Shown piece after piece: positions 4,411 to 63,259 of a DNA stretch of 64,000 bases. Made by a program: the position numbers and the translations under genes. The stretch lies in contig CACAYF010000001.1 of assembly GCA_902536655.1 (NCBI GenBank), positions 39,627 through 103,626 of the forward strand, read 5' to 3'. Source of the stretch: an uncultured Alphaproteobacteria bacterium. Its GTDB lineage: Bacteria; Pseudomonadota; Alphaproteobacteria; Methylaequorales; Methylaequoraceae. Below the pieces are notes generated by a model, which was not told the DNA's origin, searched no databases, and saw only the letters and a program-made list of their open reading frames with translations. How positions within the stretch are numbered: the first letter of the stretch is position 1; each line of letters starts with the position of its first letter.

Positions 4411-4414
4411 ATTT

Positions 4415-7637: not shown

Positions 7638-7762
7638 TAAACTTTTTATTATATTATCAATTAAAATTATTAAAAATAAAATCTATAACTTTATGCTCCT
7701 AGAATCACATAAGTTTATAAAGAAAATTTATTTTATTATAATTTATACTTAATATTTCAAAT

Positions 7763-9397: not shown

Positions 9398-9412
9398 TGA
9401 AAGGTTTTTAAT

Positions 9413-11341: not shown

Positions 11342-11347
11342 CTCAGA

Positions 11348-12508: not shown

Positions 12509-12563
12509 TTAATATATTTTATTTAATTAAAAACTAAAAAAAATAGTATATTATAAAATCAAG

Positions 12564-13713: not shown

Positions 13714-13726
13714 TATTCCTGCTAAA

Positions 13727-14899: not shown

Positions 14900-15178
14900 T
14901 TTTACTCATAGTGAAAAGGGCTTTAAATATATTCAATACTTACACTACCAAATTATTTTTTAAAATGATACTTTTGTTTTTAAGCATTTAATTAAAAGTC
15001 AAAACTAAAATTTTCAATTCAAATATATAATGTTATAACATTAAGTATAATTTATTATTTAATTATTATTAATTTATTTTTCAGTTTAGGTAAATTTAAT
15101 TCATATCAATTGTTTGACATGTTTTAATTAAATTTGGTAATTATTAAGATCTTTATATTTGTAAAAAAAAGGAAAAAT

Positions 15179-17838: not shown

Positions 17839-17862
17839 AAAAGTAATTCTTTTTGTAAACTA

Positions 17863-21291: not shown

Positions 21292-22259
21292 TGAATAATT
21301 TAGACTTTCTAAATTTTTTTGATTCTATTGAGGATCACTCTCTGACAGTGTTAAAGGGTTTAGATTCAAAACCTCAAAAAAAAATTAATTCCAAATATTT
21401 TTATGACAAAAAAGGATCAATATTATTCGATAAAATTACAAAACTAGCTGACTATTATCCCTCAAAAATTGAATGTGAAATTTTAGAAAAAAATAGGGAT
21501 AATATAAGAAAAATGTTACCTTCAAATTCTGTTATTATAGAATTTGGAAGTGGCTCAAACCGGAAAATAAAAAAATTACTGAATGCTATTGATAAACCAA
21601 TCGAATATATTCCAATTGACATAAGCAAAGAGTTTTTATTTAAAAATGCTAAAGACTCAGCAAAAGATTTTCCAAATCTAAAAATTAAAGCAATTTGTGC
21701 AGATTTTAATCAGATAGATGTACTACAAAGAATTATAGGAAAAAAAAAATCGAAAATTGGTTTCTTTCCTGGCTCTACAGTGGGAAATTATAGTCCAGAG
21801 GACGCAAAAAAATTATTAATTAACTTTTCAAGAATTCTTGGAGATGAAAGTCATCTTGTAATTGGTGTTGATTTAAAAAAGGATATAGAAGTTTTAGAAA
21901 AAGCATATAATGACTCTAAAGGAATAACCGCTGAATTTAATAAAAATATTCTTAATGGTGTGAATAAAATATGTGGCACCATATTTGATTCAAAACTTTT
22001 TTATCATAAAGCCTTCTTTAATAAAAAAAAGAGTAGGATAGAAATGCATTTAGTGAGTAAAAAAAAACAAATAGTTGAAATATTAAATACAAAAATTCAT
22101 TTTAAAGAAGGAGAAACTATTCATACTGAAAATTCTTATAAATATACCTTAAGTAGTTTTCAGAATTTAGCGGAGTTGTCAAATTTTCAAATCATAGATG
22201 TCCTAAAAGATAAGAGATCCTTTTTTGGTGTATTCATTTTGAAAGTAAAAAGTATTTGA
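21291..22259 (+). CDS. egtD: L-histidine N-alpha-methyltransferase EgtD
   Basis: EFGSGSNRKIKKLLNAI...YIPIDIS matches the EgtD ELGSGSS...YVPVDVS signature. The start overlaps the egtB stop (TAATG). Confidence 0.65.
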   Translation: MNNLDFLNFFDSIEDHSLTVLKGLDSKPQKKINSKYFYDKKGSILFDKITKLADYYPSKIECEILEKNRDNIRKMLPSNSVIIEFGSGSNRKIKKLLNAIDKPIEYIPIDISKEFLFKNAKDSAKDFPNLKIKAICADFNQIDVLQRIIGKKKSKIGFFPGSTVGNYSPEDAKKLLINFSRILGDESHLVIGVDLKKDIEVLEKAYNDSKGITAEFNKNILNGVNKICGTIFDSKLFYHKAFFNKKKSRIEMHLVSKKKQIVEILNTKIHFKEGETIHTENSYKYTLSSFQNLAELSNFQIIDVLKDKRSFFGVFILKVKSI

Positions 22260-34905: not shown

Positions 34906-35193
34906 TTATTTTTTAGGACACGTTATTTCTTTTTGGCATGTATTCCCTGGAGAACCAAGGTATATCTCTTTATCTTTTGCTCCTCTTTTCTGAGATTGAT
35001 AGGTACAAACAACGTCACCTGGAACTTTTCTTTCACTAATAAGCCTGCATTTTGGTTGAATAACAATTCTCTTTCTTCTGTCAAATGTTCCCTCTTCAGG
35101 GGCATATGTTCTACCTTTTGTTTTTGGTAAAGCGTCAACCATAAAGGGAATCATAAAACAAAATATTACATAAAGACTAAGAATTTTCCTCAT
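34906..35193 (-). CDS. small secreted Cys-containing protein, hypothetical
   Basis: Probable start at MRKILSLYVIFCF (signal peptide) inside the longer tracked ORF. Confidence 0.3.
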   Translation of the reverse strand: MRKILSLYVIFCFMIPFMVDALPKTKGRTYAPEEGTFDRRKRIVIQPKCRLISERKVPGDVVCTYQSQKRGAKDKEIYLGSPGNTCQKEITCPKK

Positions 35194-35428
35194 CAGGTTT
35201 TTCCTTATTCTGAGTATTTGTTTTTGTGGATGTTTCTTCGTCTGATCCAGGCATATAAGCAGAACCTTGAATTGACTTTGCAACAAATTTGTTCATTAAA
35301 GTATCTGATTTTTTTACATAATCTTCAAGCTCTTCTTGCAAAATTTTTTCTGCCTCTTCCTTACTATTAGCTTCGATTTCAGCTAGTCCATCAACTATCC
35401 AGTGAACTTTATAAATCATCTTCATCAT
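35177..35428 (-). CDS. hypothetical protein (83 aa)
   Basis: ORF only; acidic C-terminus. Confidence 0.25.
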   Translation of the reverse strand: MMKMIYKVHWIVDGLAEIEANSKEEAEKILQEELEDYVKKSDTLMNKFVAKSIQGSAYMPGSDEETSTKTNTQNKEKPDEENS

Positions 35429-36531: not shown

Positions 36532-36804
36532 ATGCATAGCACGAAGAACATTATTGAATTCCCAAATTTAATAAACCAAAAGAAAGAAAAAATGGTTGAA
36601 ATTAGAGATGAAATTGAAAAGATTTTAACAAACTACGCCATTAATGAGCAAGATTTATGGGCTGTTTCACTTGCTGCTGGAAGATTTGCTTCAATCCATC
36701 TTGAAAAGTTGGATGGTGAAAAGCAGACGATTAATTTTTTCAAAAATTGCATTGAAACGCAAAGAAAGTTTGAACTAACTAGAAATTCTTCCAACATTAC
36801 CTGA
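36532..36804 (+). CDS. hypothetical protein (90 aa)
   Basis: ORF only. Confidence 0.2.
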   Translation: MHSTKNIIEFPNLINQKKEKMVEIRDEIEKILTNYAINEQDLWAVSLAAGRFASIHLEKLDGEKQTINFFKNCIETQRKFELTRNSSNIT

Positions 36805-37092
36805 AATTTGAGCTCCAGTATCAACGGAAAGTGAATTTGTTTTTAATTTACCGTCAATTACACCACTGTTAGATACCTCTAAAAGGTCAGCTGTAATATC
36901 TCCATCAACTTTTCCCTCTACTTTTATGTGTTCTGCATTAATGTTTCCATTGAATAGTGCTGTGGGTTCAATAACCACTGATCTCGCAACAATATTACCT
37001 TTAAAATTTCCTGCTATAACAACTTGGCCTTCTTTCGACTCCAATTGTCCTTCCATAAGAAGATTTTTGTTAATGTAAGTTATATCACTCAT
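36775..37092 (-). CDS. Bactofilin (DUF583) paralog 3
   Basis: Beta-helical repeats VIAGNFKGNIVARSVVIEP...GKVDGDITAD...VIDGKLKT. Confidence 0.65.
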   Translation of the reverse strand: MSDITYINKNLLMEGQLESKEGQVVIAGNFKGNIVARSVVIEPTALFNGNINAEHIKVEGKVDGDITADLLEVSNSGVIDGKLKTNSLSVDTGAQISGNVGRISS

Positions 37093-37446
37093 TTAATCCT
37101 CAGCATGCTTATTATTTTTTAACTTATTTTCATCCCAGTTATGGATGATTTTACAGTTAAGTGCTGCACCTCTATCCATCTGAAGTGATTTGTAATTAAT
37201 TTCTCCAGTAATCACAGAAGAATCTGTTAGCCAAACAGAATCAGCTTTAATTTTACCTTGATAGTTTCCAGAAATTACAACTAATTCAGATATTATTGAC
37301 CCCTCAAGTGAAGCATATTTGCCAAGTGTTACCTTATCGGATTTAATATCTGCTTCTACTCTTCCATTAATTTCTATAGTTGATGCATTAGATATTTTAC
37401 CTTTAAATATCGCTCCTCTTCCTATGATTGATTGATTATCTGCCAT
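37093..37446 (-). CDS. Bactofilin paralog 2
   Basis: IIGRGAIFKGKISNASTIEINGRVEADIKSDKVTL... bactofilin repeats. Confidence 0.65.
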   Translation of the reverse strand: MADNQSIIGRGAIFKGKISNASTIEINGRVEADIKSDKVTLGKYASLEGSIISELVVISGNYQGKIKADSVWLTDSSVITGEINYKSLQMDRGAALNCKIIHNWDENKLKNNKHAED

Positions 37447-37448
37447 TA

Positions 37449-37871
37449 TTAAACACCTTTAGGTTTTTTTGATTGTTTCTTTCTTTTTTCTTTCTCTAAA
37501 CTTTTATCTTCGATTCTTTTATCTAACCCTCGGAAAAGCTGGACCTCTAAATTAGCACCGGGTCTTGCACTTAAACTGTTGTAATACATATTACCTTTTA
37601 TGTTTGCTGCAGATTCTATAGCCAATGATTCAGCAGTAACATCCCCCTCAAATTTACCTCCAATTATACATTCGAAAGCTTTTATATTACCTTTCTGATT
37701 TCCTTCAGCAGAAATATGAACATGTTCGCATTCTATATTACCTTTAACAATTCCTTTAAGCACTAACTTTCCACTGCATTTTATATTACCATTAATTTGC
37801 ATTTCGGTACCAATTACACTAGAGGAAGTCGATGCTTTTTTTTGAGTTTTATCTGGATTTCTAGAAAACAT
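37449..37871 (-). CDS. Bactofilin paralog 1 (Lys-rich C-terminal tail)
   Basis: VIGTEMQINGNIKCSGKLVLKGIVKGNIECEHVHI... bactofilin repeats. Confidence 0.65.
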   Translation of the reverse strand: MFSRNPDKTQKKASTSSSVIGTEMQINGNIKCSGKLVLKGIVKGNIECEHVHISAEGNQKGNIKAFECIIGGKFEGDVTAESLAIESAANIKGNMYYNSLSARPGANLEVQLFRGLDKRIEDKSLEKEKRKKQSKKPKGV

Positions 37872-37882
37872 ATTTCTACATT

Positions 37883-37899
37883 TGCAATAATTTTGCCAA
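37883..37899 (-). promoter_or_regulatory. Candidate sigma-54-like promoter upstream of the bactofilin triad
   Basis: Minus strand TGGCAAA-ATTA-TTGC. Very close to the annotated bactofilin start, so it fits better if translation begins at the internal Met (MQINGNIK, ~37802). Confidence 0.3.
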
Positions 37900-37970
37900 T
37901 TTATTCAATTTTAAGAACTTTAACCATTATCATAAAAAAAATTAAAAAAAAAGTTTTATTATTTAAATTT

Positions 37971-37986
37971 TGGCTTACTAAATGCA
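37971..37986 (+). promoter_or_regulatory. Candidate sigma-54-like promoter upstream of the tail-anchored protein / M23 peptidase / SLT operon
   Basis: TGGCTTA-CTAA-ATGCA (GG...GC spacing correct; -12 is aTGC instead of TTGC), ~45 nt upstream of the ATG at 38028. Confidence 0.3.
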
Positions 37987-38027
37987 TAAATTTACTTTTA
38001 ATAAATTTTATTGTAAGTTAATAAATT

Positions 38028-38570
38028 ATGAGTGAACCAGTAATTGACATTAGAGATAGAATAGAAAAGATGAGAAATCAGATGACTGTACCTGCCTCTA
38101 AAGTTTCTAGTTCAGAAACAAAAGTCGAAAGTAAAAAAGTTGAATCCGTACCAAGCGACAAAGCTGCAAACATTAATGTAGAAAACATAGAAAAAAAAAT
38201 AAGTAAAAACAACTTTGAAATAGCCGATAAAGAAAATATTAGATTTAAGAAAAACGAAAAATCAGCAGCTGATTATGAGGCACAAAAGCATAAACTAAAA
38301 AAAGATGAAGAACCCGATATTATTGAAAAAATAGAATTTGAAAAACAAAAGACTTTTGAAACTAAACAAAATTATAAGACCTATGACAGCTATCAAAATG
38401 ATAGAGTTGTTGATGATAAAAAACAATCAGTTAAGTTTGACGAAAAACAGCCATTTCCTCAGTTTAGCTTAAATGTTAGTAATCCTATTTCTTGGAAACT
38501 TATGTTGCTAATTATGTTAATGCAACTATTAACCAATATGATGTTGGTTGTTGTTCTATACTTGAAATGA
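38028..38570 (+). CDS. tail-anchored membrane protein with charged disordered N-terminal region, hypothetical
   Basis: K/E-rich low-complexity region; single C-terminal TM. Confidence 0.3.
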   Translation: MSEPVIDIRDRIEKMRNQMTVPASKVSSSETKVESKKVESVPSDKAANINVENIEKKISKNNFEIADKENIRFKKNEKSAADYEAQKHKLKKDEEPDIIEKIEFEKQKTFETKQNYKTYDSYQNDRVVDDKKQSVKFDEKQPFPQFSLNVSNPISWKLMLLIMLMQLLTNMMLVVVLYLK

Positions 38571-38574
38571 TTAA

Positions 38575-39954
38575 ATGGAAAATTTATCTAAAAAAATTTC
38601 CATGAATGTTTTCAAATTTAACATTTTGAAAAATCTAAAATCAAGTACAAGATTCGGCGAAACAAGTATTTTTTCCAGAAATTTAAGTGTATTTTCAAAA
38701 AATCTTAGACTTCTTCTCAAAGAAAGAAGATTTCTTTATTTTACAAAAAAAGGGCCTATAGAAGTTGTATTCAATATTAAACACTATTTGTCAGCTATCA
38801 CAATTTTTCTGGTTTTAATCTTCAAAGTTTTTCAACTTTTATTCTTTGGTGTTTCGTCTTTTTTTTCTTATATGGTTTACAAAAATACAGTTATAAATGA
38901 ACAGAGTTTTACAGAATCTGAAATAAAAACATTAAAAAGTATTGCAAAAGGTAAAAATATTTCAGAGCAAGAAATTAATTCTGAAAAAGCAGAAATAGTA
39001 ATTAAACAACAAGATGAATTTACAAAAACGAATAATTTTCAAAATGAATTACAAGATCAATTAAGAGAAAAATTATTAAATTTAAAAAGTATGATGCGAA
39101 ATATAAAGCTTAGCTTCCCAAATGACTTGAATTATTCAGATGAAATTAAATTTGAACAATTTTCAAAACTTGCAAGTCCTGAAATGGTTGCAATAGAACA
39201 TGCCTTTGAGAACAAGTTTGATCTAACAAAACCATCAAAAGACAAAAAAGAATCATTTGCATATAGGAAGCTCCCTGTTGTACCGTTTGTTGCTCCAAGA
39301 ACAAAAAAACTTAAAATAATTAATTTTACAAAGAAAATTGATACCGAAATTTTACAACTTTTAAGTGTTTTTGAACAATTGAAACTTCAACCAGACAAAC
39401 TTGATATTATCAGGATAAACGCCTTGCTTGCTGAAAATATAAATGTAGGCGAAGATAATGAGGATTTATTGGATCATACTTCGCTGAGGTTTCAAATTTT
39501 GCAAGATCTAAAAGATGCAATTATTTATGTACCTTTAAAACCACCTATGCAATATTACTACGTGTCTAGTCCTTATGGAATCAGAGTTCATCCTAAAAGC
39601 AAAAGAAAACAAATGCATCATGGAATTGATATGGCTGGCACTTGGCAAGAAGAGGTTAGGGCACCTGCTGATGGATATGTTTCTTTTTCGGGAAGAAATG
39701 GGTCTTTTGGTAAAACTATTAAAATAGTTCATAAACATGGTGTGTCAACATTGTATGGACATCTTCATCGATTAAATGTGAAAAAAGGGATGAATGTCAC
39801 AGAGGGAGAAGTAATTGGAAAAATGGGATCAACAGGAAGAGCTGTTGGTGCGCATCTTCATTATGAAATAAAAGTTAGTGGTAAATCAGTAAATCCATAC
39901 GATTTCATTTCAGTGGGACGTGATCTGCTAAGCAGTTCAATAATTAAAAAATAA
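38575..39954 (+). CDS. M23 (LytM) family peptidoglycan endopeptidase, membrane anchored
   Basis: HHGIDMA...YGHLHR...GSTGRAVGAHLHYEI (HxxxD / HxH M23 motifs); N-terminal TM. Confidence 0.7.
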   Translation: MENLSKKISMNVFKFNILKNLKSSTRFGETSIFSRNLSVFSKNLRLLLKERRFLYFTKKGPIEVVFNIKHYLSAITIFLVLIFKVFQLLFFGVSSFFSYMVYKNTVINEQSFTESEIKTLKSIAKGKNISEQEINSEKAEIVIKQQDEFTKTNNFQNELQDQLREKLLNLKSMMRNIKLSFPNDLNYSDEIKFEQFSKLASPEMVAIEHAFENKFDLTKPSKDKKESFAYRKLPVVPFVAPRTKKLKIINFTKKIDTEILQLLSVFEQLKLQPDKLDIIRINALLAENINVGEDNEDLLDHTSLRFQILQDLKDAIIYVPLKPPMQYYYVSSPYGIRVHPKSKRKQMHHGIDMAGTWQEEVRAPADGYVSFSGRNGSFGKTIKIVHKHGVSTLYGHLHRLNVKKGMNVTEGEVIGKMGSTGRAVGAHLHYEIKVSGKSVNPYDFISVGRDLLSSSIIKK

Positions 39955-39990
39955 ATTAAAGTTTGGCACTTAAATTGCTGATTAAAATGC

Positions 39991-40611
39991 ATGAGATTAT
40001 TTTTAGCCGTTTTATTATGCTTTTTAATATTTACATTACTTGAATCAAAAGAACTTGAATCAAAAGAATTAGATAATTGTAACTATTTAACTGAAAAGTA
40101 CGGAAAAATTTATAATCTTCCCAATAAACTATTAACTTCTATTGCACTTGTTGAGTCAGGGATCAAAAAGAACGAATTTAAGTCATGGCCATGGACACTA
40201 AATGTTTCCGGAAAATCAATGTATTTTGATAATAAATTAGAAACCTTAGAATATTTAAAAAGTAATATAAGCTCTAAAAAAAGTATCGACGTCGGTTGCA
40301 TGCAAATTAACACAAGATACCACTTAAAAAATTTTAAAGATTTGTCTCATTTAGTCGAGCCTGAAGAAAACGTGAAGTACGCTGCAATTTATCTTCGTAA
40401 ACTTTTTAAAAAATATAAATCGTGGAACGAAGCAGTTTCAAGATATCATTCATCAATTCCAAAACGAAAGAAAAATTATCTTAAAAAAGTTCGTACATAT
40501 TGGAATGATTTAAGACAACAGAAAATAGTTATAGATAATAATTATATCAGCCATGATGAGGCAGAAAAAATAAAATTTTTTAGAGAAATACTAAAAAAAG
40601 AAAATACTTAA
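39991..40611 (+). CDS. Lytic transglycosylase, SLT-domain (secreted)
   Basis: Signal peptide; IALVESG...DVGCMQIN SLT catalytic Glu and motif II. Confidence 0.5.
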   Translation: MRLFLAVLLCFLIFTLLESKELESKELDNCNYLTEKYGKIYNLPNKLLTSIALVESGIKKNEFKSWPWTLNVSGKSMYFDNKLETLEYLKSNISSKKSIDVGCMQINTRYHLKNFKDLSHLVEPEENVKYAAIYLRKLFKKYKSWNEAVSRYHSSIPKRKKNYLKKVRTYWNDLRQQKIVIDNNYISHDEAEKIKFFREILKKENT

Positions 40612-43161: not shown

Positions 43162-43358
43162 AAAACTGCAGAATATGTTCTTTCATAAGATATTTTTTAG
43201 CTTTTGTTCTGTTATTGATTATTATTTCGCTGACTTTTAAAGACAATCTAAGTTATCTTTCGTTTGTTACACCATGGAATGCAGCAATATTAATATTTGG
43301 TGTAGGTTGTGGTCTATTTTTATTTAAATTAATTGAGTATTTAAATCAGAAAGATTAA
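43158..43358 (+). CDS. small membrane protein (66 aa)
   Basis: Two hydrophobic segments. Confidence 0.2.
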   Translation: MKNCRICSFIRYFLAFVLLLIIISLTFKDNLSYLSFVTPWNAAILIFGVGCGLFLFKLIEYLNQKD

Positions 43359-43855
43359 CGATCTCTTACGAATCTTACAAATAATTCCTTCTCAGGTACA
43401 AACCTTCCGTAAGAATGTCCTGTAAAGAAGTTTACTGACCAAAAAAACTTAGGTGACCACCAATTTCTTTGAGAAGTCCAGAAAGGTTCAGCCGGTGTGT
43501 TAGGAAAAAAAGTTTTGTCTATCTTTGCTCCCTCGCAATTTTTACAAATTAAGCTTTCTAGCTCTTTTCTAGAGGGCAACCTCCACTCACCTTCAATTTG
43601 CTCATTAAGTAAATTATTAGCCTCTTCTGCAGATTTTAAATCCAATTTAACAGCAGCTCCAAGACATTCTTGTTTGTTGTCGCTCCATTGTTGACCTGTT
43701 GTACATTTTAGCCACTCAAGTTTATTTTTTAAATCTATAACGTAATACCCTTTGTCTATGAAGTTAGATGCAAAGACATTATTATTAAAAAATAGTAGGA
43801 AAAAACATATAAAAAGTTGCTTTTTAATCATATCTGTATAATACAATAAATACAT
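43355..43855 (-). CDS. DUF1566 (Lcl C-terminal domain)-like secreted protein
   Basis: Signal peptide; W...C...EWRLPSRKELESL pattern of DUF1566. Confidence 0.4.
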   Translation of the reverse strand: MYLLYYTDMIKKQLFICFFLLFFNNNVFASNFIDKGYYVIDLKNKLEWLKCTTGQQWSDNKQECLGAAVKLDLKSAEEANNLLNEQIEGEWRLPSRKELESLICKNCEGAKIDKTFFPNTPAEPFWTSQRNWWSPKFFWSVNFFTGHSYGRFVPEKELFVRFVRDR

Positions 43856-43880: not shown

Positions 43881-43896
43881 TGGTATTAAAGTTGCA
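43881..43896 (+). promoter_or_regulatory. Candidate sigma-54 (-24/-12) promoter upstream of motA
   Basis: TGGTAT-N5-TTGCA with GG and GC at consensus spacing, ~50 nt upstream of the motA ATG; G/C dinucleotides are rare in this AT-rich intergenic region. Confidence 0.4.
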
Positions 43897-43946: not shown

Positions 43947-44720
43947 ATGGATTTAGCTACAATAATTGGTTTTCTTGGTACAATTGGCATGATTGCTGGC
44001 GCAATGATTTCAGCTGGAGGTTTGGGCTCATACATTGATGTCCCTTCAATTTTAATAGTTTTTGGTGGTTCTTTTTTTGCTGTAATGTATACAGCACCTT
44101 TACCAGTTTATCTTGGTTCTTTCGGAGCTTTTGGTAAAGCTTTTAAACCACCTGTAAAAAAAATGGACGAACTTATTGAAAGAATAGTAGAGCTAGCAGG
44201 TATTGCAAGAAAAGATGGGATGATGGCATTAGAAGGACAAGAAACTCCAGATCCATTTTTTGACAACGGTCTTCAAATGCTAGTAGACGGAGCAGATGAG
44301 TCAAAACTTACTGTACAATTAAAAAAAGAACTTAAGGCAATGCAAGGTCGACATGAAAAAAATATTGGGTGTGCCCAATCTTGGGTAGATATAGCACCTG
44401 CAATGGGAATGATTGGAACTTTGGTTGGATTGGTTGCGATGCTTGGTAATATGGCAGATCCTAAAGCAATTGGTCCTGCAATGGCTGTTGCTCTTTTGAC
44501 TACACTTTACGGGGCTATGATAGCAAATACTATTTTTATGCCCATAGTAATAAAATTAAAAGGCTATTCAGCCTACGAAACAACTTACAGAGAAATGATT
44601 ATTACAGGATTACAATTTATTTCCAGAGGAGAGAGCCCAAGAAATATTCAGGATCAACTTGTTGCGAATCTTCCACCTAAAGAAAAGCAAAAACTTCTGG
44701 AAGCTGCAGCTGGAGGTTAA
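43947..44720 (+). CDS. motA: Flagellar motor stator protein MotA/PomA
   Basis: 4TM MotA/TolQ/ExbB family; 257 aa. Confidence 0.8.
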   Translation: MDLATIIGFLGTIGMIAGAMISAGGLGSYIDVPSILIVFGGSFFAVMYTAPLPVYLGSFGAFGKAFKPPVKKMDELIERIVELAGIARKDGMMALEGQETPDPFFDNGLQMLVDGADESKLTVQLKKELKAMQGRHEKNIGCAQSWVDIAPAMGMIGTLVGLVAMLGNMADPKAIGPAMAVALLTTLYGAMIANTIFMPIVIKLKGYSAYETTYREMIITGLQFISRGESPRNIQDQLVANLPPKEKQKLLEAAAGG

Positions 44721-44730
44721 AGTTTGAATC

Positions 44731-45915
44731 ATGGCTGAGGAAAAAACTGAAAATCAACAGACATCAAATGAAGAGGAGGAACATGAATGTCCCGAATGTC
44801 CTCCAAAAGGAGCGCCTGCTTGGATGGCAACTTTTGCTGACATGGCAACACTGTTGATGGCTTTTTTTGTTTTAATCCTATCTTTCGCAGAATTTAATGT
44901 CCCAAAATTTAAACAAATAAGTGGAAGTATGAAGAATGCTTTTGGGATACAAAGAGTTATTCCAGTTGTTGAACCACCTAAAGGAACAACAATATTATCT
45001 TTAAATTTCAGTCCGAACCCGACTCCCGCGGTTCAAGAAAATTTAAAACAACAAACAACAGAGACTGATCAACCTAAAGTAGAACTTCAAACTAAGAAAG
45101 AAGATAATACTAAGGATGATGGTGAAACTGAGGACGCAAAAGAACTTGCCAAAAATATTCAAGAAGCTATTGCAAGAGGTGATATAACCGTCGAAGCATT
45201 GGGGAGTAAAGTTGTTGTTAACTTTACACCAACAGAAGCTGACGAGAAAGAACTACCTCAACTACTTCAAGAGACTTTAAATGCTGTGGAATCTGTAAAG
45301 GCTGCATCGGGAAAATCAGATTCTGAAATTTTAATTGGTGGCTTAGAAAAGCAGCTGGCTGATCTTGCAACTGCATCTTCTCAAAAAGGTAAAAATGAGG
45401 CTGAAGGTGAAGATGGAGAAAGTGTAGGTCAATCTGAACAAAGCCAATCAGCTAAGGAGGAGGCTAAAAAAGCAGAGCTGGCTGAGGACAAATTAAAAAT
45501 TGCACTAAAACAAGAAATTGGGGAAGGCCTTGTAAATGTTGATAGAGAAGACGATAAAGTGATAATAACTGTTGGGTCTGCTGGTGCGTTCAAGTCAGGA
45601 TCTGCTGAACTTACTAATAAGGCAAGAGAGATAATGTCTAAAATAGCAGAACAAAATAAAAAAGGTAGAAGTGAGATATTGGTGATGGGTCATACGGACA
45701 ACGTGCCACTTACATTTGGGTCAAATTATAGAGACAATTGGGATCTCGCAGCAGCAAGATCTGCCTCAGTGGTTCAACAATTATCAAGAAATGATATTCT
45801 CGACCCAAAAAGAATGAAGGCCATAAGTTACGGAGAGACAAGACCAGTAGAGTCAAATGATACCACTCAGGGAAGAGCCAAAAATAGAAGAATTGAAATC
45901 GAGATAAATTATTAA
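44731..45915 (+). CDS. motB: Flagellar motor stator protein MotB (OmpA-like C-terminus; long E/K-rich linker)
   Basis: TM with conserved Asp (WMATFADMATLLMAFFVL); C-terminal OmpA motif ILVMGHTDNVP...NWDLAAARSASVVQ...NRRIEI. Confidence 0.8.
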   Translation: MAEEKTENQQTSNEEEEHECPECPPKGAPAWMATFADMATLLMAFFVLILSFAEFNVPKFKQISGSMKNAFGIQRVIPVVEPPKGTTILSLNFSPNPTPAVQENLKQQTTETDQPKVELQTKKEDNTKDDGETEDAKELAKNIQEAIARGDITVEALGSKVVVNFTPTEADEKELPQLLQETLNAVESVKAASGKSDSEILIGGLEKQLADLATASSQKGKNEAEGEDGESVGQSEQSQSAKEEAKKAELAEDKLKIALKQEIGEGLVNVDREDDKVIITVGSAGAFKSGSAELTNKAREIMSKIAEQNKKGRSEILVMGHTDNVPLTFGSNYRDNWDLAAARSASVVQQLSRNDILDPKRMKAISYGETRPVESNDTTQGRAKNRRIEIEINY

Positions 45916-45916
45916 G

Positions 45917-46840
45917 ATGAGAATAGAAAACAGTCCATTTCATATTTCTAAAAATAAGGTTCCCCTTGTAAAAGAAAATAAAGGACCTAACAATCAACAC
46001 CTCTTAAATGATAAGAAGGCTAATGGAGCCGAAAAAGACGATTTCTCTTTTTGGGATTGGTTTAGAGGGTTGGTAAACCCTTTCCAAAACCTCCCAATTA
46101 TAAGTGGAATATATTCAAGCATTAATTCTGATGATAGTAAATCCGATAGAGACTTGATTCAAAATAGTCTCGGTGGTTTTATGTATGGTGGTCCTATTGG
46201 CGCGATTGCAGGTTTTGGGAATTGGGTTTTTAATAAAATATTTGATAAAACGCCGTCAGAACTAGCGCTTGATGCTTCAGGAATAAGCAATCTTTGGAAA
46301 GACGATAAGAAAAAAGAGAGTCAGATTGCAGAAAATAATAAAATAGATGATGACAGAAATTCCTCAGTGGTTATTTCTAATAAAAATAATTACGGAGAGT
46401 GGTGGAAAGGCAACCAAAAACCTGGCATCAAAAATTATTTAGCATCTAGTAAAAATAATTTTGAAAAAACTAACTTCTCCAACTTCAAAAATATAGATAT
46501 CGAAAATAAAAATAAGTCTATTGAAAGAAATATTAACAAATATTCGACCAAACCAGTTGTTTTGGAAAATAAACAAAATATCACTTTAGCTTTTGATGGA
46601 AAGTCTGAGTTAGTAAAAATAAATAATCAAATCTCTGGGTCTATTGATAACAAAAACGAAAATAAAAAGTCCAAAAAAGTAAAATTTGGAGAAATCAATT
46701 TTAATTATCCGAGCTGGAGTCCAGGCTCTATTGAAGTTGACAAAAATAAAAATGATTTGAAAAGCAAAGATTCAATTAATAAGAAATATATGGATCTTAA
46801 AAATGGAAATATTGGATCAAACTTAAATCTGAAACTTTAA
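45917..46840 (+). CDS. hypothetical N/K-rich protein co-transcribed with motAB
   Basis: Starts 1 nt after the motB stop; Gly-rich hydrophobic patch LGGFMYGGPIGAIAGFGNWVF. Confidence 0.3.
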   Translation: MRIENSPFHISKNKVPLVKENKGPNNQHLLNDKKANGAEKDDFSFWDWFRGLVNPFQNLPIISGIYSSINSDDSKSDRDLIQNSLGGFMYGGPIGAIAGFGNWVFNKIFDKTPSELALDASGISNLWKDDKKKESQIAENNKIDDDRNSSVVISNKNNYGEWWKGNQKPGIKNYLASSKNNFEKTNFSNFKNIDIENKNKSIERNINKYSTKPVVLENKQNITLAFDGKSELVKINNQISGSIDNKNENKKSKKVKFGEINFNYPSWSPGSIEVDKNKNDLKSKDSINKKYMDLKNGNIGSNLNLKL

Positions 46841-47440
46841 TCACTCGTATTCAAGTTCTTCGTTTTTATATTTTTCAAAATATTCGTTACCCAGAATTTC
46901 CTTTATCTTTTCAATTGTAAGATCGTTGATTTTAGAGGAGTATAACTCGTGCATTTCAGAACATTTTCTGGAAACCGCGTTTGCAACCCCTTGAGATATA
47001 AAATCATTTTCAAGTGCTGTTCTTGCTCTTGTAGTTGCCTCAGATTTAGCCTTTGTGAGTCTAGCTAAACCTGAATTTTTTTTTCTATTTAAATCGTCGA
47101 CAACTTCCATTAGTTGTTTGTAGCTGGGTTCTGGTAGGTCAATGTTAATGAATTGTCCATCAACTTCGTAATTAAACTCTACTTCATCAACTTTTTCAGT
47201 TAAAAGGGGTATGTGATCTGTATTAAAAACTAAGATTTGTACTACATTTTCATTTTCTGTTTTCTTTATATCTCCTACATCAACTAACCTTCTTGGCTTA
47301 CCTTGGATGTTGATACGTATACCTTTAAGTGTACTTAAGTTTGCATCTGCTGATTTTACTTCTTGAATTACTTCTGTATAATCCTCGATTGCTGCTTTCA
47401 TTAAAGTTTCTGCTTGTATTGTATATTTATCTGCAACCAT
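46841..47440 (-). CDS. hypothetical soluble protein (199 aa)
   Basis: ORF; co-directional and tightly packed with the genes downstream of flhB. Confidence 0.3.
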   Translation of the reverse strand: MVADKYTIQAETLMKAAIEDYTEVIQEVKSADANLSTLKGIRINIQGKPRRLVDVGDIKKTENENVVQILVFNTDHIPLLTEKVDEVEFNYEVDGQFINIDLPEPSYKQLMEVVDDLNRKKNSGLARLTKAKSEATTRARTALENDFISQGVANAVSRKCSEMHELYSSKINDLTIEKIKEILGNEYFEKYKNEELEYE

Positions 47441-47449
47441 AAAATGATT

Positions 47450-48250
47450 TTATACTATAACTGTCTGATTTTCATCAACAATGTTTTCTTTATTACTGTT
47501 ATTTTTATTAACATTGTCTTCTTTTTTGTCTTTTTCAACCTCTTCTACAAGTGGTTTTGGTAGTTTTGAAAATTTAAATTTTGACTTTGGATCTAACTTT
47601 CTGATGGTTTTTTGAGCTTCATCAATTGATTTAGACAAAATTTTTATACAAAAAACTTTTCCTTCTAGCATTGAAAAACTATAAAGAAGGTTTAATTGGG
47701 CTTTATAACAGTAAATTGAAGTAAGTAACCAGCCAAGAAAAAAAATATAAATATTAACTGATATTGATACTGCCATAATTGCTGTAAACAGTAGCAAAAT
47801 CCACCATTTTTGCGAATAAGCTAGCCAGAATGGAGGAAAAATACCTGCTGATAGCGAGTTTGCATTTTCGATTACCTCGTAATTTCTGTAAACGTCTCTC
47901 ATTCCAATAAATTCCTTTAGTTCGTTAAGATCATGTATTTCTTCCGATAAGTAAACAGATTTTATTTTACTGGTTTCCTCAGCAGTGGTTGTGACAAATT
48001 TGCAACCTAAACTATTTTCTACTAATAAATTAAAAAATGTATCATCTCTCAAAACTGTGAGCATAGATTTTTGACTACTTTTTTTTAATTCTTTTAAATC
48101 AGCAGTTAACTGTTTTTCACCAAAAGTATAAATTTGGTTGTCTAGTGCAACGATTATATCATCAGGCTTCAAAAAGTTGTTTGCAGCGTGACTTCCACTA
48201 TTTATTTTATTAATTTTTAAAAGAAAGTTTCCTTCTTGCTTTTCAGACAT
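47450..48250 (-). CDS. hypothetical membrane protein with PDZ-like N-terminal segment
   Basis: GSHAANNFLKPDDIIVALDNQ resembles a PDZ carboxylate-binding region; 3-4 TMs follow. Confidence 0.3.
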   Translation of the reverse strand: MSEKQEGNFLLKINKINSGSHAANNFLKPDDIIVALDNQIYTFGEKQLTADLKELKKSSQKSMLTVLRDDTFFNLLVENSLGCKFVTTTAEETSKIKSVYLSEEIHDLNELKEFIGMRDVYRNYEVIENANSLSAGIFPPFWLAYSQKWWILLLFTAIMAVSISVNIYIFFLGWLLTSIYCYKAQLNLLYSFSMLEGKVFCIKILSKSIDEAQKTIRKLDPKSKFKFSKLPKPLVEEVEKDKKEDNVNKNNSNKENIVDENQTVIV

Positions 48251-48257
48251 TATTTTA

Positions 48258-48983
48258 TTATGGGAAAGTTATACTTTCTTTTTGATCAGTTATTTCTTTT
48301 ACTAATTGCTTATTTTGACTAGAAATCGCTTCCAGTGCTGCATTCAGTGATGATGTACTATTAGAAAGTTCTTTAAGAAGTTTTACGTTCTGGTTCTTTT
48401 TATTATCTTTTAATAGTTTTCCAATCTCTTTATTAACACTTGCAGACGTCACAACTCCTGACTCTTGAATAGACTTATTTAACTTGTCCGCTTCGTTTTT
48501 AATTGATTTAGAAAGTCCTGATGATAAATTTGTAATTTCTTTAGATAAATTAACCATTAGTTTTTTATCATTTGAATTAATTGCGCTGGAAAGCTCTTCA
48601 AGTTTAACTTTCATCTCTTCGCTGGCATTTAATAAATCAGTATGTCTAGCTAAACTTTGATTCATGTTATCTACCGCTTTATTAACATTTTCAACATTTT
48701 CAGCAAAAACAACCAAAGCTTCTCTACTAGTGCTTGTCATGTCTTCTAGTTCTGAAAGTGACTTAAAATATAGAAGTCCAGTTAAAAGAATTGCCACTAT
48801 AGCAGTAGCAATTGAACTTGAAAAAATGATGGTTGTATATTTGTGAATTTCTTTCATTTTTTGCTCCGTCTTTAAGTATTCGTTTTTAATTCTTTTGTAT
48901 TCTGAAGTCACATCGGTGGCTGCGTCAGCCGCATCCAACGCTATTTTTATGCTTTCCTGCATTGCATTAAGTTGTTGAGTCAT
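48258..48983 (-). CDS. single-pass membrane coiled-coil protein, hypothetical
   Basis: TM at ~residue 50; long heptad-like S/N/K-rich region. Confidence 0.3.
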   Translation of the reverse strand: MTQQLNAMQESIKIALDAADAATDVTSEYKRIKNEYLKTEQKMKEIHKYTTIIFSSSIATAIVAILLTGLLYFKSLSELEDMTSTSREALVVFAENVENVNKAVDNMNQSLARHTDLLNASEEMKVKLEELSSAINSNDKKLMVNLSKEITNLSSGLSKSIKNEADKLNKSIQESGVVTSASVNKEIGKLLKDNKKNQNVKLLKELSNSTSSLNAALEAISSQNKQLVKEITDQKESITFP

Positions 48984-49180
48984 GCAATTCTTCCTTTATT
49001 AAATATTTTAACACTTTTTTGTTTTTTTTGAAATAGTGCACAATCTGTGCCAGAAACTTTCTTTATTTCTAAATATGGATTATTTTTTGAAATTACACCA
49101 AATGCTTTACAACCATATGGAAAGTTTTTCTTATAGGTCACATAAAAATGCGCGCAGTTATTACAATTATTTTGGTTCAT
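48980..49180 (-). CDS. small Cys4 zinc-ribbon-like protein (66 aa)
   Basis: C-x2-C ... C ... C arrangement. Confidence 0.25.
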   Translation of the reverse strand: MNQNNCNNCAHFYVTYKKNFPYGCKAFGVISKNNPYLEIKKVSGTDCALFQKKQKSVKIFNKGRIA

Positions 49181-49409
49181 TTTTCGTTAGATCTCTTATT
49201 TTATAATATAGTTTTGCAATTTGGAACCTCAACGCACCACAAAAAGAAGTAAAAGCACAAAACCAAAGAAATAAAGCAAGCAAAAAATTTTTTTCTTCGA
49301 ACACTTCAATGGCCTTAAAGTGGCATATTAATGAGCTGTAAAAAAAAGCAAGAGTAACTATTAGTTGTGAAATATTTCTATTGATCATTTTTTCTTCCAA
49401 ACTCGTCAA
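49167..49409 (-). CDS. small two-TM membrane protein (80 aa)
   Basis: Immediately downstream of flhB, overlapping it. Confidence 0.2.
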   Translation of the reverse strand: MTSLEEKMINRNISQLIVTLAFFYSSLICHFKAIEVFEEKNFLLALFLWFCAFTSFCGALRFQIAKLYYKIRDLTKNEPK

Positions 49410-50529
49410 AAATCATATCTTCAGGAATCTCTATCTCTGGTTTCTCAATTTCTTCTCCATTATCTATTTTATAAATATATGCTAAGGCAATAGCAACAGC
49501 ATTGTAAAGCTTACTCATAATTTCATCACCAATTTCAGATGTATAGTATATTGCTCTTGCCAGTTTAGGACTTTGCATTGTACCAATCTTAAGTTCTTTT
49601 CCTTTCTTAATTATGGATTCAGCAATTTTACCCCTTCCTTTGGATATAATTATAGGTGCTTTTGCGTCCCCAACCTCATATTTAAGAGCTACAGCAAAGT
49701 GTGTTGGGTTTGTAATTATTGCAGTAGCTTCTTTAAGGTTATCAACAGACGATGCTTCTTTTCTACTTTTTGTTGCAGCTTCGGCTTGAAGTTTTCTTAT
49801 TTTTTGTTTGACTTCAGGTTGTCCGTCAGTCTCTTTGTATTCGTCTTTGAGGTCTTGATGAGACATTCTAAGTTGCTTAATATAATCATACTTTTGATAA
49901 ACCACATCTATAAAAGCTATAAATGCGAGAACGATAAGGAGATATGCAATTATTTCTGGAAAAAAAGAAAAAAGTCTATTTACTGCAGAAAAAATATTAG
50001 CAGTTGTTAAGTTGACTAAATCAGATAAATTATTTTCAATCAGAAAAAAAGCTACTAGACCAAGAAGACTGACTTTTAATATAGCTTTTACTAATTCTAC
50101 TAATCCCTTAAGTGAGAATATTCTTTTTAACCCTTTTATAGGATTCATTTTTTCAAACTTCCAGTAAATTGACTTTAAGGAGAAGTTTATTCCACCGATT
50201 AAAAACTGCGTTAGTACACTTACTACCAATAGTGGTATTGAAAAAATTAAAAATACTTGAATGAAAAATTTTACAACCACAGCAACAGATTCAAGAGGAG
50301 ACTTTCCAGAGGTTAGTTCCGGACCAAAAGAAAATAGAGATTTACAAATTTTTAAAAAATCGTCTAATAGAATTGGTGCAAGATAAAATAGTAACACTCC
50401 CATGAACATTGAACTAAAAACAAAAGCTTCTTTTGAAGACAGAACTTTCCCATCCTCTTTTGCTTTTTCAAGCCTTCGGGCCGTGGGTTCCTGGGTTTTT
50501 TCTTGACTTTCGTCTTTGTCTTCAGCCAT
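49378..50529 (-). CDS. flhB: Flagellar export apparatus protein FlhB
   Basis: 4 TMs plus a cytoplasmic domain with the NPTH autocleavage motif (AIITNPTHFAVALKY). Confidence 0.85.
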   Translation of the reverse strand: MAEDKDESQEKTQEPTARRLEKAKEDGKVLSSKEAFVFSSMFMGVLLFYLAPILLDDFLKICKSLFSFGPELTSGKSPLESVAVVVKFFIQVFLIFSIPLLVVSVLTQFLIGGINFSLKSIYWKFEKMNPIKGLKRIFSLKGLVELVKAILKVSLLGLVAFFLIENNLSDLVNLTTANIFSAVNRLFSFFPEIIAYLLIVLAFIAFIDVVYQKYDYIKQLRMSHQDLKDEYKETDGQPEVKQKIRKLQAEAATKSRKEASSVDNLKEATAIITNPTHFAVALKYEVGDAKAPIIISKGRGKIAESIIKKGKELKIGTMQSPKLARAIYYTSEIGDEIMSKLYNAVAIALAYIYKIDNGEEIEKPEIEIPEDMIFDEFGRKNDQ

Positions 50530-52744: not shown

Positions 52745-52759
52745 GCAAAAACCTTGCCG
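52745..52759 (-). promoter_or_regulatory. Candidate internal sigma-54 promoter in the 127-bp fliN-fliO gap
   Basis: Minus strand CGGCAAG-GTTT-TTGC, ~22 nt upstream of the fliO start. Confidence 0.35.
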
Positions 52760-56212: not shown

Positions 56213-56255
56213 ATCTGCCCCTTGTTAAAGCAAATGTGCAATTATAATGCCACTA

Positions 56256-63243: not shown

Positions 63244-63259
63244 GCAAAAATATTGCCAA
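63244..63259 (-). promoter_or_regulatory. Candidate sigma-54 promoter for the activator-fliEFGHIJ... operon
   Basis: Minus strand reads TGGCAAT-ATTT-TTGC. The predicted TSS (~63233) sits just upstream of the ATG at 63209, supporting that start. Confidence 0.45.

What the first reader, a model, noticed from the sequence alone, without database searches (positions are those of the whole stretch)
46841..49409. Five uncharacterised, tightly packed genes co-directional with and immediately downstream of flhB, as candidate novel flagellar or envelope components
After flhB, with overlapping stops and starts and no intergenic gaps, come five genes. They encode a two-TM 80-aa protein, a 66-aa Cys4 (CxxC...C...C) zinc-ribbon-like protein, a single-pass membrane coiled-coil protein (241 aa), a polytopic membrane protein with a PDZ-like N-terminal segment (266 aa), and a 199-aa soluble protein.

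None matches the genes that normally follow flhB in Vibrio or Pseudomonas (flhA, flhF, flhG, fliA), which are not in this window. Operon continuity with the fliO-flhB export-gate genes implies a role in flagellar export or assembly, the sheath or motor periphery, or chemotaxis coupling. The Cys4 mini-protein and the PDZ-membrane protein are particularly unusual for a flagellar operon.
Basis: inference. Interest (0 to 1): 0.6.

Follow-up and report, generated by a model that had tools for sequence, protein, structure and literature searches.

The report
Flagellar-operon tail with RRF-like paralog
Five conserved genes follow flhB in an uncultured marine alphaproteobacterium; they look like a lineage-specific accessory set for the flagellar motor, and one is an undescribed, very divergent copy of the ribosome recycling factor that also sits beside the stator genes motAB in SAR116 bacteria.

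Summary
Five minus-strand genes follow flhB with overlaps or gaps of at most 9 nt. All are under purifying selection (dN/dS 0.01-0.25). The order flhB-g80-g66-g241-g266-g199, convergent on motA-motB-g307, is kept in all 31 related loci that include flhB.

1. The 199-aa "soluble protein" has the ribosome-recycling-factor (RRF) fold: Pfam 46 bits, AlphaFold pLDDT 89.5, top 27 Foldseek hits all RRFs. It is not frr (30.9 bits against a cut-off of 149). It belongs to a small family separate from canonical RRFs. These genomes carry two copies. In SAR116 its relative lies directly after motB.
2. A sigma-54-type -24/-12 element lies inside g66, 54-66 nt before g241, in all 31 loci, with frozen synonymous sites. 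A similar element precedes motA. So g241-g266-g199 probably form their own RpoN-dependent unit.
3. g241 matches Rhodobacter sphaeroides MotF in position (directly after flhB) and architecture. Sequence homology could not be tested.

Best reading: a stator-associated accessory module. Its function rests on gene context only. Relatives of the RRF-like protein also occur in non-flagellar contexts.

The parts
49378..50529 (-). flhB, the last canonical gene of the fliE...fliR-flhB cluster (context)
   Evidence: Pfam Bac_export_2 339 bits; NCBIfam flhB 346.6 bits.
49167..49409 (-). g80: small protein with two TM segments. Probable true start is ATG 49388 (73 aa), overlapping the flhB stop by 11 nt.
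   Evidence: ORF. Conserved in all related loci at 47-95% identity. dN/dS 0.10-0.24. Hydrophobic segments at residues 13-34 and 42-60. No family match.
48980..49180 (-). g66: basic 66-aa protein (pI 9.8) with four invariant Cys (CxxC...C...C) and an invariant C-terminal G-[RK]-[LI]-A.
   Evidence: Alignment A7. dN/dS 0.11-0.25. No hit in Pfam, NCBIfam, PADLOC or by PDB profile search.
49038..49052 (-). Sigma-54-type -24/-12 element TGGCACAGATTGTGC, embedded in the g66 coding sequence, 54 nt upstream of the g241 ATG.
   Evidence: Pattern match. Present 54-66 nt upstream of g241 in all 31 loci. Synonymous sites are frozen here: TCT 15/15, GGC 15/15 (GGC is 10% of Gly codons), TGT 15/15. Other invariant residues of g66 vary their codons.
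48258..48983 (-). g241: bitopic membrane protein of 26.6 kDa. Cytoplasmic N-terminus of 50 aa, TM at 52-70, and a C-terminal part with no family match, read as helical and periplasmic (not computed). MotF-like by position and architecture.
   Evidence: 74-100% identity across the clade, more conserved than FlhB. dN/dS 0.01-0.03. TM segment. No PDB or Pfam homologue. Not a FliL paralogue. MotF data from PMC7277832 and PMC9779115.
47450..48250 (-). g266: N-terminal PDZ domain (about residues 11-87), a TM hairpin (about 139-183) resembling DUF2628, a small alpha/beta C-terminal domain, and a disordered tail with a conserved hydrophobic C-terminus.
46841..47440 (-). g199: acidic (pI 4.9) paralogue with the ribosome-recycling-factor fold ('type A'). 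Not the housekeeping frr.
   Evidence: Pfam RRF 46.1 bits (GA 29.7), but NCBIfam frr only 30.9 against a cut-off of 149.1. AlphaFold pLDDT 89.5 with RRF topology. Foldseek top 27 hits are all RRFs. Only 72 hits among 1.84 billion representatives. Family tree.
43881..43895 (+). Sigma-54-type -24/-12 element TGGTATTAAAGTTGC, 51 nt upstream of motA.
   Evidence: Pattern match. Conserved 44-65 nt upstream of motA in all 27 loci that reach motA. SAR116 has TGGTCTTATTCTTGC 47-48 nt upstream of motA.
43947..46840 (+). Convergent motA-motB-g307 operon. Its stop codon abuts the stop codon of g199 with 0 nt between them.
   Evidence: Pfam MotA_ExbB, MotB_plug and OmpA. Synteny.

Best explanation
The five genes are a conserved, lineage-specific accessory set of an RpoN-dependent, gamma-type (Fla1-like) flagellar system. 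The host is an uncultured low-GC marine alphaproteobacterial clade.

The genes fall into two parts.
1. g80 (two TM segments) and g66 (Cys4) are translationally coupled to flhB.
2. g241-g266-g199 have their own sigma-54-type promoter, hidden inside g66. It is of the same class as the promoter of the convergent motAB-g307 operon. These three genes would therefore be co-expressed with the stator.

Proposed roles within that unit:
- g241 is the positional and architectural counterpart of R. sphaeroides MotF, a bitopic protein that together with FliL releases the MotB plug.
- g266 is a membrane-anchored cytoplasmic PDZ adaptor.
- g199 is an acidic RRF-fold paralogue whose ancestral position is next to motB. 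It most likely acts as a cytoplasmic factor tied to stator or motor expression or function, not as the general ribosome recycler.

Shown: gene reality, synteny, the folds, the promoter-like element and its conservation, and the paralogy.
Inferred: co-transcription, the MotF-like role, and any motor or ribosome binding.
For: - Overlapping or near-abutting genes.
- Identical gene order in 31 loci with 56-98% identity of g199.
- dN/dS 0.01-0.25.
- Sigma-54-type element with frozen synonymous sites upstream of g241 in 31 of 31 loci, and a similar one upstream of motA in 27 of 27 loci.
- Sigma-54-like matches are enriched in the window: 38 found, 22.2 expected.
- rpoN and a sigma-54 activator lie in the window.
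- In SAR116 the RRF-like gene lies 25-42 nt after motB, within the same neighbourhood of bactofilin, M23 peptidase, rpoN, Lcl_C and motAB. A sigma-54-type element lies upstream of motA there too.
- In a third lineage the RRF-like gene follows fliG.
- MotF (RSP_0067) lies directly after flhB (RSP_0066). It is 24 kDa with a TM at residues 54-74. g241 is 26.6 kDa with a TM at 52-70.
- g199 fails the frr equivalog cut-off, while a canonical RRF control passes with 177 bits.
- Each genome has two paralogues, and neither lies in an frr-type context.
Against: - None of the five proteins has sequence or structural homology to a known flagellar protein.
- Sequence homology between g241 and MotF was not tested.
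- Members of the RRF-like family in Paracoccaceae, in the P0157 lineage and as paralogue B lie in non-flagellar contexts. The family is therefore not flagellum-specific.
- Adjacency to motB in SAR116 and in this clade may be inherited synteny, not independent selection.
- Helix 3 of g199 keeps a basic face (R127, K130, K132, R138, R140), so ribosome binding is not excluded.
- There are no transcript data.
Confidence: 0.5

Rival explanations
1. g199, and the RRF-like family as a whole, is still a ribosome-binding factor. It would be a specialised recycling, rescue or hibernation-type protein, or a translational regulator of flagellar proteins. Its link to motAB and flhB would then be regulatory co-expression, not a physical role in the motor.
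For: - Full two-domain RRF fold.
- Lys132, at the position equivalent to E. coli Arg132, is invariant, and helix 3 is basic and almost invariant.
- Family members occur in many non-flagellar contexts.
- Paralogue B is basic, pI 6.9-9.3.
Against: - The residues equivalent to Arg110 and Arg129 are lost.
- Type A is strongly acidic, with a net charge of about -10.
- 10-20% identity to canonical RRFs.
- Far below the frr cut-off.
Confidence: 0.3
2. The five genes are unrelated passengers. They would be general membrane or housekeeping genes that happen to be fixed at the 3' end of the flagellar operon in one clade, with no role in motility.
For: - No homology to flagellar proteins.
- DUF2628-like and PDZ modules are generic.
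- Relatives of the RRF-like protein occur elsewhere in non-flagellar contexts.
Against: - Translational coupling to flhB.
- Invariant linkage across 31 loci although dS is saturated.
- A sigma-54-type promoter of the same class as the motA promoter.
- Positional match to motF.
- Independent adjacency to motB or fliG in other lineages.
Confidence: 0.17
3. g199 is simply the fast-evolving housekeeping frr of an AT-rich streamlined genome.
For: - Pfam RRF match above the gathering score.
- Some sources name it 'ribosome recycling factor'.
Against: - NCBIfam frr 30.9 bits against a cut-off of 149.1; a canonical control scores 177.
- Only about 72 hits in 1.84 billion representatives, and canonical RRFs barely appear, at E about 1e-4.
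- Two paralogues per genome.
- The family is monophyletic apart from canonical RRFs. It includes Paracoccaceae, a group whose sequenced members carry a normal frr (established knowledge, not checked here).
- No pyrH, tsf or uppS neighbours.
Confidence: 0.03

Closest known systems
MotF of Rhodobacter (Cereibacter) sphaeroides Fla1 (RSP_0067)
   Same: - The gene lies directly after flhB in a fliEFGHIJKLMNOPQR-flhB cluster of gamma-type in an alphaproteobacterium.
[quoted passage not shown]
- It is co-regulated with motility genes (PMC7277832, PMC9779115).
- From memory of the 2012 abstract, motF is the first gene of a unit that contains two further hypothetical genes.
   Different: - Sequence homology was not tested, because the MotF sequence could not be reached.
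- Here two small ORFs (g80, g66) lie between flhB and g241.
- MotF is reported as restricted to some Rhodobacteraceae.
- No functional data exist for g241.
Ribosome recycling factor (frr; PF01765 / TIGR00496)
   Same: - Same two-domain fold and topology over the full length.
- Pfam match above the gathering score.
- A basic residue is conserved at the Arg132 position.
   Different: - 10-20% identity to canonical RRFs.
- Fails the equivalog cut-off.
- The residues equivalent to Arg110 and Arg129 are lost.
- Family-specific N-terminal YSxxA motif and tip-loop ENEFI motif, plus a C-terminal extension.
- Two paralogues per genome.
- Flagellar or miscellaneous gene context instead of pyrH-frr-uppS.
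PDZ domains of site-2 proteases and HtrA (RseP PDZ2, MucP, DegS/DegP) and GRASP
   Different: - No protease domain.
- The PDZ is predicted to be cytoplasmic and is fused to a DUF2628-like TM hairpin.
- Pfam PDZ models match only 1 of 23 orthologues.
Cytoplasmic motor regulators that bind MotA or FliG (YcgR, MotI/DgrA, EpsE)
   Same: They are small cytoplasmic proteins encoded with or near motility genes and act at the stator-rotor interface. g199 relatives lie next to motB or fliG. This is an analogy only.
   Different: - A completely different fold (RRF, not PilZ or glycosyltransferase).
- No c-di-GMP-binding motifs were looked for or found.
- No binding data.

Membership tests
Ribosome recycling factor (frr) | Match to Pfam PF01765 above the gathering score | tested here: met
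   46.1 bits against GA 29.7, covering residues 25-183.
Ribosome recycling factor (frr) | Match to the NCBIfam equivalog TIGR00496 above its cut-off of 149.1 bits | tested here: not met
   30.9 bits. The canonical control P0180 scores 177.4 bits. Paralogue B, the SAR116 members and the Paracoccaceae members give no hit.
Ribosome recycling factor (frr) | Two-domain L-shaped fold: a three-helix bundle plus an alpha/beta domain | tested here: met
   AlphaFold pLDDT 89.5, with helices 2-26, 107-144 and 150-196 and an alpha/beta domain at 32-101. The top 27 Foldseek PDB hits are RRFs, best E 1e-12.
Ribosome recycling factor (frr) | Conserved Arg110, Arg129 and Arg132 (E. coli numbering) on domain I. 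Their importance is quoted from memory of the literature. | tested here: not met
   In the alignment to 1ek8, R110 corresponds to L and R129 to T (a variable position in the family). R132 corresponds to K132, which is invariant.
Ribosome recycling factor (frr) | Single housekeeping copy in a translation-gene context (pyrH/tsf/uppS) | tested here: not met
   Two paralogues per genome. Their contexts are flhB/motAB, or trmL, a photolyase-related gene and a DnaJ-like gene. Whether a canonical frr exists elsewhere could not be checked.
Ribosome recycling factor (frr) | Splits post-termination ribosomes together with EF-G | not testable with these tools
   Needs biochemistry.
MotF (R. sphaeroides Fla1) | Bitopic membrane protein of about 24 kDa, TM near residues 54-74, C-terminus periplasmic | tested here: met
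   g241 is 26.6 kDa with one hydrophobic segment at 52-70 and a Lys/Arg-rich segment before the TM. MotF values are from PMC7277832. The topology is predicted only.
MotF (R. sphaeroides Fla1) | Gene located immediately downstream of flhB in a Fla1-type cluster | tested here: met
   RSP_0066 is flhB and RSP_0067 is motF (PMC9779115). Here the order is flhB-g80-g66-g241, so two small ORFs intervene.
MotF (R. sphaeroides Fla1) | Sequence or profile homology to RSP_0067 | not testable with these tools
   No R. sphaeroides sequence was reachable.
MotF (R. sphaeroides Fla1) | Required for rotation; the defect is suppressed by MotB plug mutations | not testable with these tools
   Needs genetics.
PDZ domain | PDZ fold | tested here: met
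PDZ domain | Match to the Pfam PDZ sequence models | tested here: inconclusive
   Only 1 of 23 orthologues matches, at E 0.006 (PF00595) and 0.025 (PF13180). Weak hits to NCBIfam HtrA-type models, E 3e-4 to 0.03.
DUF2628 | Match to PF10947 above the gathering score of 23 bits | tested here: inconclusive
   20.2 bits for the window protein. 16 of 23 orthologues match at E up to 0.1, best 9e-5.
Known flagellar proteins that usually follow flhB or act as chaperones or at the motor periphery (FlhA, FlhF, FlhG, FliA, FliS, FliT, FlgN, FlgM, MotX, MotY, FliL) | Sequence-family match | tested here: not met
   No Pfam or NCBIfam hit to any of these for the five proteins. hhalign of g241 against FliL gives probability 0.07.
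Sigma-54 (RpoN) promoter | GG at -24 and GC at -12 with the canonical spacing (TGGCAC-N5-TTGC), placed upstream of a gene and conserved | tested here: met
   TGGCACAGATTGTGC has one mismatch. It is present in 31 of 31 loci, 54-66 nt upstream of g241. Synonymous sites are frozen. The transcription start and RpoN dependence are untested.
Anti-phage defence systems | Match to PADLOC models | tested here: not met
   Only noise for g241, E 0.009 or worse.

The most novel reading that the evidence does not exclude
A translation-factor fold, the tRNA-shaped ribosome recycling factor, has been duplicated and recruited in marine Alphaproteobacteria as a component or regulator of the flagellar motor. 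It would be co-expressed from sigma-54 promoters with the MotAB stator and a MotF-like activator, and would act either at the MotA-FliG interface or by coupling ribosomes to flagellar assembly. Together with a PDZ membrane adaptor and a Cys4 mini-protein, it would define a previously unrecognised stator-control module.
Probability: 0.25. Interest if true: 0.8.

Novelty: new variant of a known kind. Interest (0 to 1): 0.6.

Why it matters
- Lineage-specific accessory proteins such as MotF, FliL, FlgT, MotX and MotY explain how different bacteria tune stator recruitment and torque. This module would add a new set, in very abundant but uncultured ocean bacteria and in SAR116.
- I found no published description of a bacterial paralogue family of ribosome recycling factor. 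Public annotation pipelines name these proteins 'ribosome recycling factor', which is probably wrong and would inflate frr counts in marine genomes.
- A sigma-54 promoter written into the synonymous sites of a coding gene is a clean, testable example of overlapping codes.
- SAR116 has cultured representatives, so the motB-linked gene can be tested genetically.

Tried and rejected
Led nowhere:
- Pfam, NCBIfam and PADLOC scans of all five proteins and g307: nothing for g80, g66, g241 or g307.
- Profile searches of g266, g241 and g66 against PDB sequences: nothing significant.
- Pfam on all g241 orthologues: only scattered coiled-coil noise.
- Consensus sigma-70 promoter and terminator scan: no more sites than in shuffled sequence, and no terminator after flhB.
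- tRNA and Rfam scans of the window: nothing.
- tblastn of g241 and of a Paracoccaceae RRF-like protein against plasmids: no match.
- Search for a canonical frr in the window and in all fetched loci: none. This is uninformative, because only about 1 Mb was held.
- Contig look-ups for P0135, P0169, P0144 and P0157: contigs too short to give context, except that the P0135 contig showed the end of motB.
- An exact look-up of the window's g266 found no record.
- Alignments too divergent for locus scans.
This was solved by using cluster-member ids.
- The afdb50 fold library was unavailable.
- Literature searches for RRF paralogues found nothing relevant.
- The original MotF paper is not held.

Considered and rejected:
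- g199 is the housekeeping frr.
- g241 is a FliL paralogue.
- The set is a defence system.
- The sigma-28 pattern scan was not interpretable.
- The cross-locus motif count is not position-specific, so it is not used as evidence.
Full report
**1. Observation**

The window has about 28% G+C. On the minus strand it carries a flagellar cluster in the Vibrio/Pseudomonas order: a sigma-54 activator, then fliE, F, G, H, I, J, K, L, M, N, O, P, Q, R and flhB.

Five ORFs follow flhB (50529-49378) at exactly the reported coordinates:
- g80: 49409-49167
- g66: 49180-48980
- g241: 48983-48258
- g266: 48250-47450
- g199: 47440-46841

Junctions, read from the sequence:
- g80 overlaps the end of flhB. A conserved internal ATG at 49388 gives a 73-aa product and an 11-nt overlap.
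- g80 and g66 overlap by 14 nt.
- g66 and g241 share ATGA.
- The remaining two gaps are 7 and 9 nt.
- The g199 stop abuts the stop of the convergent motA-motB-g307 operon, with 0 nt between them.

The consensus scans find no more promoters or terminators than in shuffled sequence, and no terminator after flhB.

**2. The genes are real and the arrangement is conserved**

A scan of species-representative genomes, plus contig look-ups, returned 31 loci that contain flhB. They come from uncultured marine Alphaproteobacteria: GORG single-cell genomes and MAGs labelled Alphaproteobacteria, 'Rickettsiales' or 'Pelagibacteraceae'.

Every locus long enough shows the same order: fliQ-fliR-flhB-g80-g66-g241-g266-g199, convergent on g307-motB-motA, then rpoN.

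Identity to the window:

| Protein | Identity |
|---|---|
| g241 | 74-100% |
| FlhB | 58-99% |
| g199 | 56-98% |
| g266 | 42-95% |
| g66 | 50-98% |
| g80 | 47-95% |

Pairwise dN/dS is 0.01-0.25 for all five while dS approaches or reaches saturation. g241 and g199 (0.01-0.04) are as constrained as flhB.

**3. g199 is a divergent ribosome-recycling-factor paralogue**

Fold evidence:
- It matches Pfam RRF over its full length (46.1 bits, GA 29.7).
- It scores only 30.9 bits against the NCBIfam frr equivalog (cut-off 149.1). A canonical RRF control scores 177 bits.
- The best PDB sequence hits are RRFs at E 4e-6 to 0.16.
- An AlphaFold model (pLDDT 89.5) has the RRF topology.
- Its top 27 Foldseek PDB matches are all RRFs.

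Evidence that it is a separate family:
- Against 1.84 billion representative proteins it finds only 72 hits. These form a small family of proteins of about 190-270 aa. A canonical RRF appears only at E 8.5e-5.
- In a neighbour-joining tree the family is monophyletic apart from canonical RRFs, with 10-20% identity to them.
- By the alignment to E. coli RRF, Arg110 and Arg129 are replaced, and Arg132 corresponds to an invariant Lys.
- The family has its own motifs: N-terminal YSxxA, RRLxD, and a tip-loop ENEFI.

Paralogy:
- In 13 genome assemblies of the clade the scan found two copies. Type A is the copy in the window. Type B is 31-43% identical to it.
- A and B are sister groups.
- Type B lies between trmL, a methyltransferase gene, a photolyase-related gene and small membrane-protein genes on one side, and a DnaJ-like gene on the other. 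That context is neither flagellar nor pyrH-frr-uppS.
- Type A is acidic (pI 4.7-5.1). Type B is neutral to basic.

So g199 is almost certainly not the housekeeping frr. I could not check directly that a canonical frr exists elsewhere in these genomes.

**4. Context of the family elsewhere**

- SAR116/Puniceispirillales (about 30% identity, 250-268 aa). The gene lies 25-42 nt after motB on the same strand. The neighbourhood is three bactofilin genes, an M23 peptidase gene, rpoN, an Lcl_C gene, motA and motB. The window shares this neighbourhood.
- A third lineage (P0130). The gene follows the 3' end of fliG and a small gene for a secreted protein.
- Marine Paracoccaceae. The gene lies beside a cbb/RuBisCO operon with no flagellar gene within 10 kb.
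- The P0157 lineage. The context is also non-flagellar.

The link to motB and fliG is therefore recurrent but not universal. The adjacency shared by SAR116 and the window clade could be inherited synteny.

**5. An internal sigma-54-type promoter**

Matches to TGGCAC-N5-TTGC (2 mismatches or fewer) are enriched in the window: 38 found against 22.2 +/- 5.0 expected.

One match, TGGCACAGATTGTGC (49052-49038, minus strand), lies inside g66, 54 nt before the g241 ATG.
- The element is present 54-66 nt upstream of g241 in all 31 loci.
- The codons that carry it are frozen: Ser TCT 15/15, Gly GGC 15/15 (GGC is 10% of Gly codons in this operon), Cys TGT 15/15.
- Other invariant residues of g66 use their synonymous codons freely.

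A similarly placed element, TGGTAT[TC]AAAGTTGC, lies 44-65 nt upstream of motA in all 27 loci that reach motA. SAR116 has TGGTCTTATTCTTGC 47-48 nt upstream of motA. No such element precedes g80, g266, g199, type B or the non-flagellar relatives.

I infer that g241-g266-g199 are transcribed, at least in part, from their own RpoN-dependent promoter, in parallel with motAB. Because it is of the flagellar promoter class, it supports regulon membership instead of refuting it.

**6. g241, g266, g66 and g80**

g241
- One TM segment at residues 52-70, an N-terminal segment of about 50 residues, and a C-terminal part I read as helical and periplasmic.
- No homologue in Pfam, NCBIfam or PDB. It is not a FliL paralogue.
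- In R. sphaeroides the Fla1 genes RSP_0052 to RSP_0066 run from fliE to flhB. RSP_0067, directly after flhB, is motF (PMC9779115).
[quoted passage not shown] Together with FliL it is needed to release the MotB plug (PMC7277832).
- g241 matches MotF in position and architecture. Sequence homology could not be tested, so this is a lead, not a classification.

g266
- Model pLDDT 77.5.
- A TM hairpin that resembles DUF2628 below threshold in 16 of 23 orthologues.
- A small alpha/beta domain and a disordered tail with a conserved hydrophobic C-terminus.

g66
- Basic, with four invariant Cys and an invariant C-terminal G-[RK]-[LI]-A.

g80
- A small protein with two TM segments.

None of the four matches a defence-system model.

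**7. Interpretation**

The best-supported reading is a lineage-specific flagellar accessory set.
- g80 and g66 are translationally coupled to flhB.
- g241, g266 and g199 are co-regulated with the stator.
- g241 acts like MotF.
- g199 is an RRF-fold protein that keeps the family's old association with motAB.

Whether g199 acts on the motor or on ribosomes is open. Its acidity and the loss of two key arginines argue against classical recycling. Its conserved basic helix 3 and its non-flagellar relatives keep a ribosomal role possible.

I put about 0.5 on the module being flagellar-motor related, about 0.3 on a ribosome-directed role for g199 (the two are not exclusive), about 0.17 on passenger genes, and about 0.03 on g199 being the housekeeping frr.

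**8. Novelty**

I found no literature on bacterial RRF paralogues. Sources either label these proteins 'ribosome recycling factor' or 'hypothetical protein', or give no name; the g266 orthologues that carry a name are all 'hypothetical protein'. The set is a new variant of a known kind, namely lineage-specific flagellar accessory genes, and it contains one unexpected fold.

Noticed in passing
window 43881-43895 (+); also 39964-39978 (+), 37884-37898 (-), 52745-52759 (-), 56238-56252 (-), 63244-63258 (-): Sigma-54-type -24/-12 motifs lie upstream of motA, the SLT lytic transglycosylase gene (a perfect TGGCACTTAAATTGC), the bactofilin genes, fliO, fliK and the sigma-54 activator gene. This suggests a wide RpoN regulon that includes cell-shape and wall genes. 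Only the motA and g241 sites were checked for positional conservation.
   Followed up: partly
window 36775-40611 and 43355-43855; L059 and L060 2187-7902: A conserved neighbourhood is shared with SAR116: three bactofilin genes, an M23 peptidase gene, (an SLT gene in the window), rpoN, an Lcl_C/DUF1566 gene and motAB. This points to a cell-pole or cell-shape and motility gene island.
   Followed up: partly
window 45917-46840 (+): g307 is an unannotated 307-aa protein encoded directly after motB. Its N-terminal third is conserved (FSFWDWFRGLVNP...GGPIGAIAGFGNWVFNKIF) and its Asn/Lys-rich tail is variable. It has no family match. It is present in all related loci but absent from SAR116, where the RRF-like gene takes that position.
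   Followed up: partly
L039-L058, for example L046 9983-10594: A second RRF-like paralogue (type B, 31-43% identical, basic) occurs in the same genomes. Its conserved context is trmL, a methyltransferase gene, a photolyase-related gene, a DUF2798-like gene and a cupredoxin-like gene upstream, with DnaJ-like, coiled-coil and TerB-like genes downstream.
   Followed up: partly
L007 and L008 2600-9540: In abundant marine Paracoccaceae the RRF-like gene lies next to a complete cbb operon (form I RuBisCO large and small subunits, CbbX-like AAA protein, PRK, FBPase, aldolase, LysR regulator). A Calvin-cycle operon in a pelagic Rhodobacteraceae lineage.
   Followed up: no
window 20026-22259 (+): Two overlapping genes look like ergothioneine synthesis genes: an EgtB-like DinB/FGE-sulfatase protein and an EgtD-like histidine methyltransferase. 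They are followed by a class V aminotransferase/desulfurase-like gene. Identified by eye only.
   Followed up: no
window 1-19000: A very low-GC (22-26%) island of glycosyltransferase, asparagine-synthase-like, sulfatase-like, methyltransferase and sugar-nucleotide genes. It is probably a surface-polysaccharide or flagellin-glycosylation region.
   Followed up: no
window 34906-35286 (-) and L009 326-652: A small secreted Cys-containing protein in the window resembles the small protein encoded between fliG and the RRF-like gene in the P0130 lineage. Both share a C...VxCxY...GA...C...IxC pattern, judged by eye.
   Followed up: no
P0189: A 271-aa database protein joins an N-terminal canonical RRF part to an EF-Ts-like C-terminus. 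It is probably an assembly or gene-calling chimera of neighbouring tsf and frr genes.
   Followed up: no
window 46838-46843: The stop codons of the convergent genes g307 (TAA) and g199 (TGA) are directly adjacent, with no intergenic base and no recognisable terminator. Transcripts from the two operons must overlap or end inside the opposite gene.
   Followed up: no
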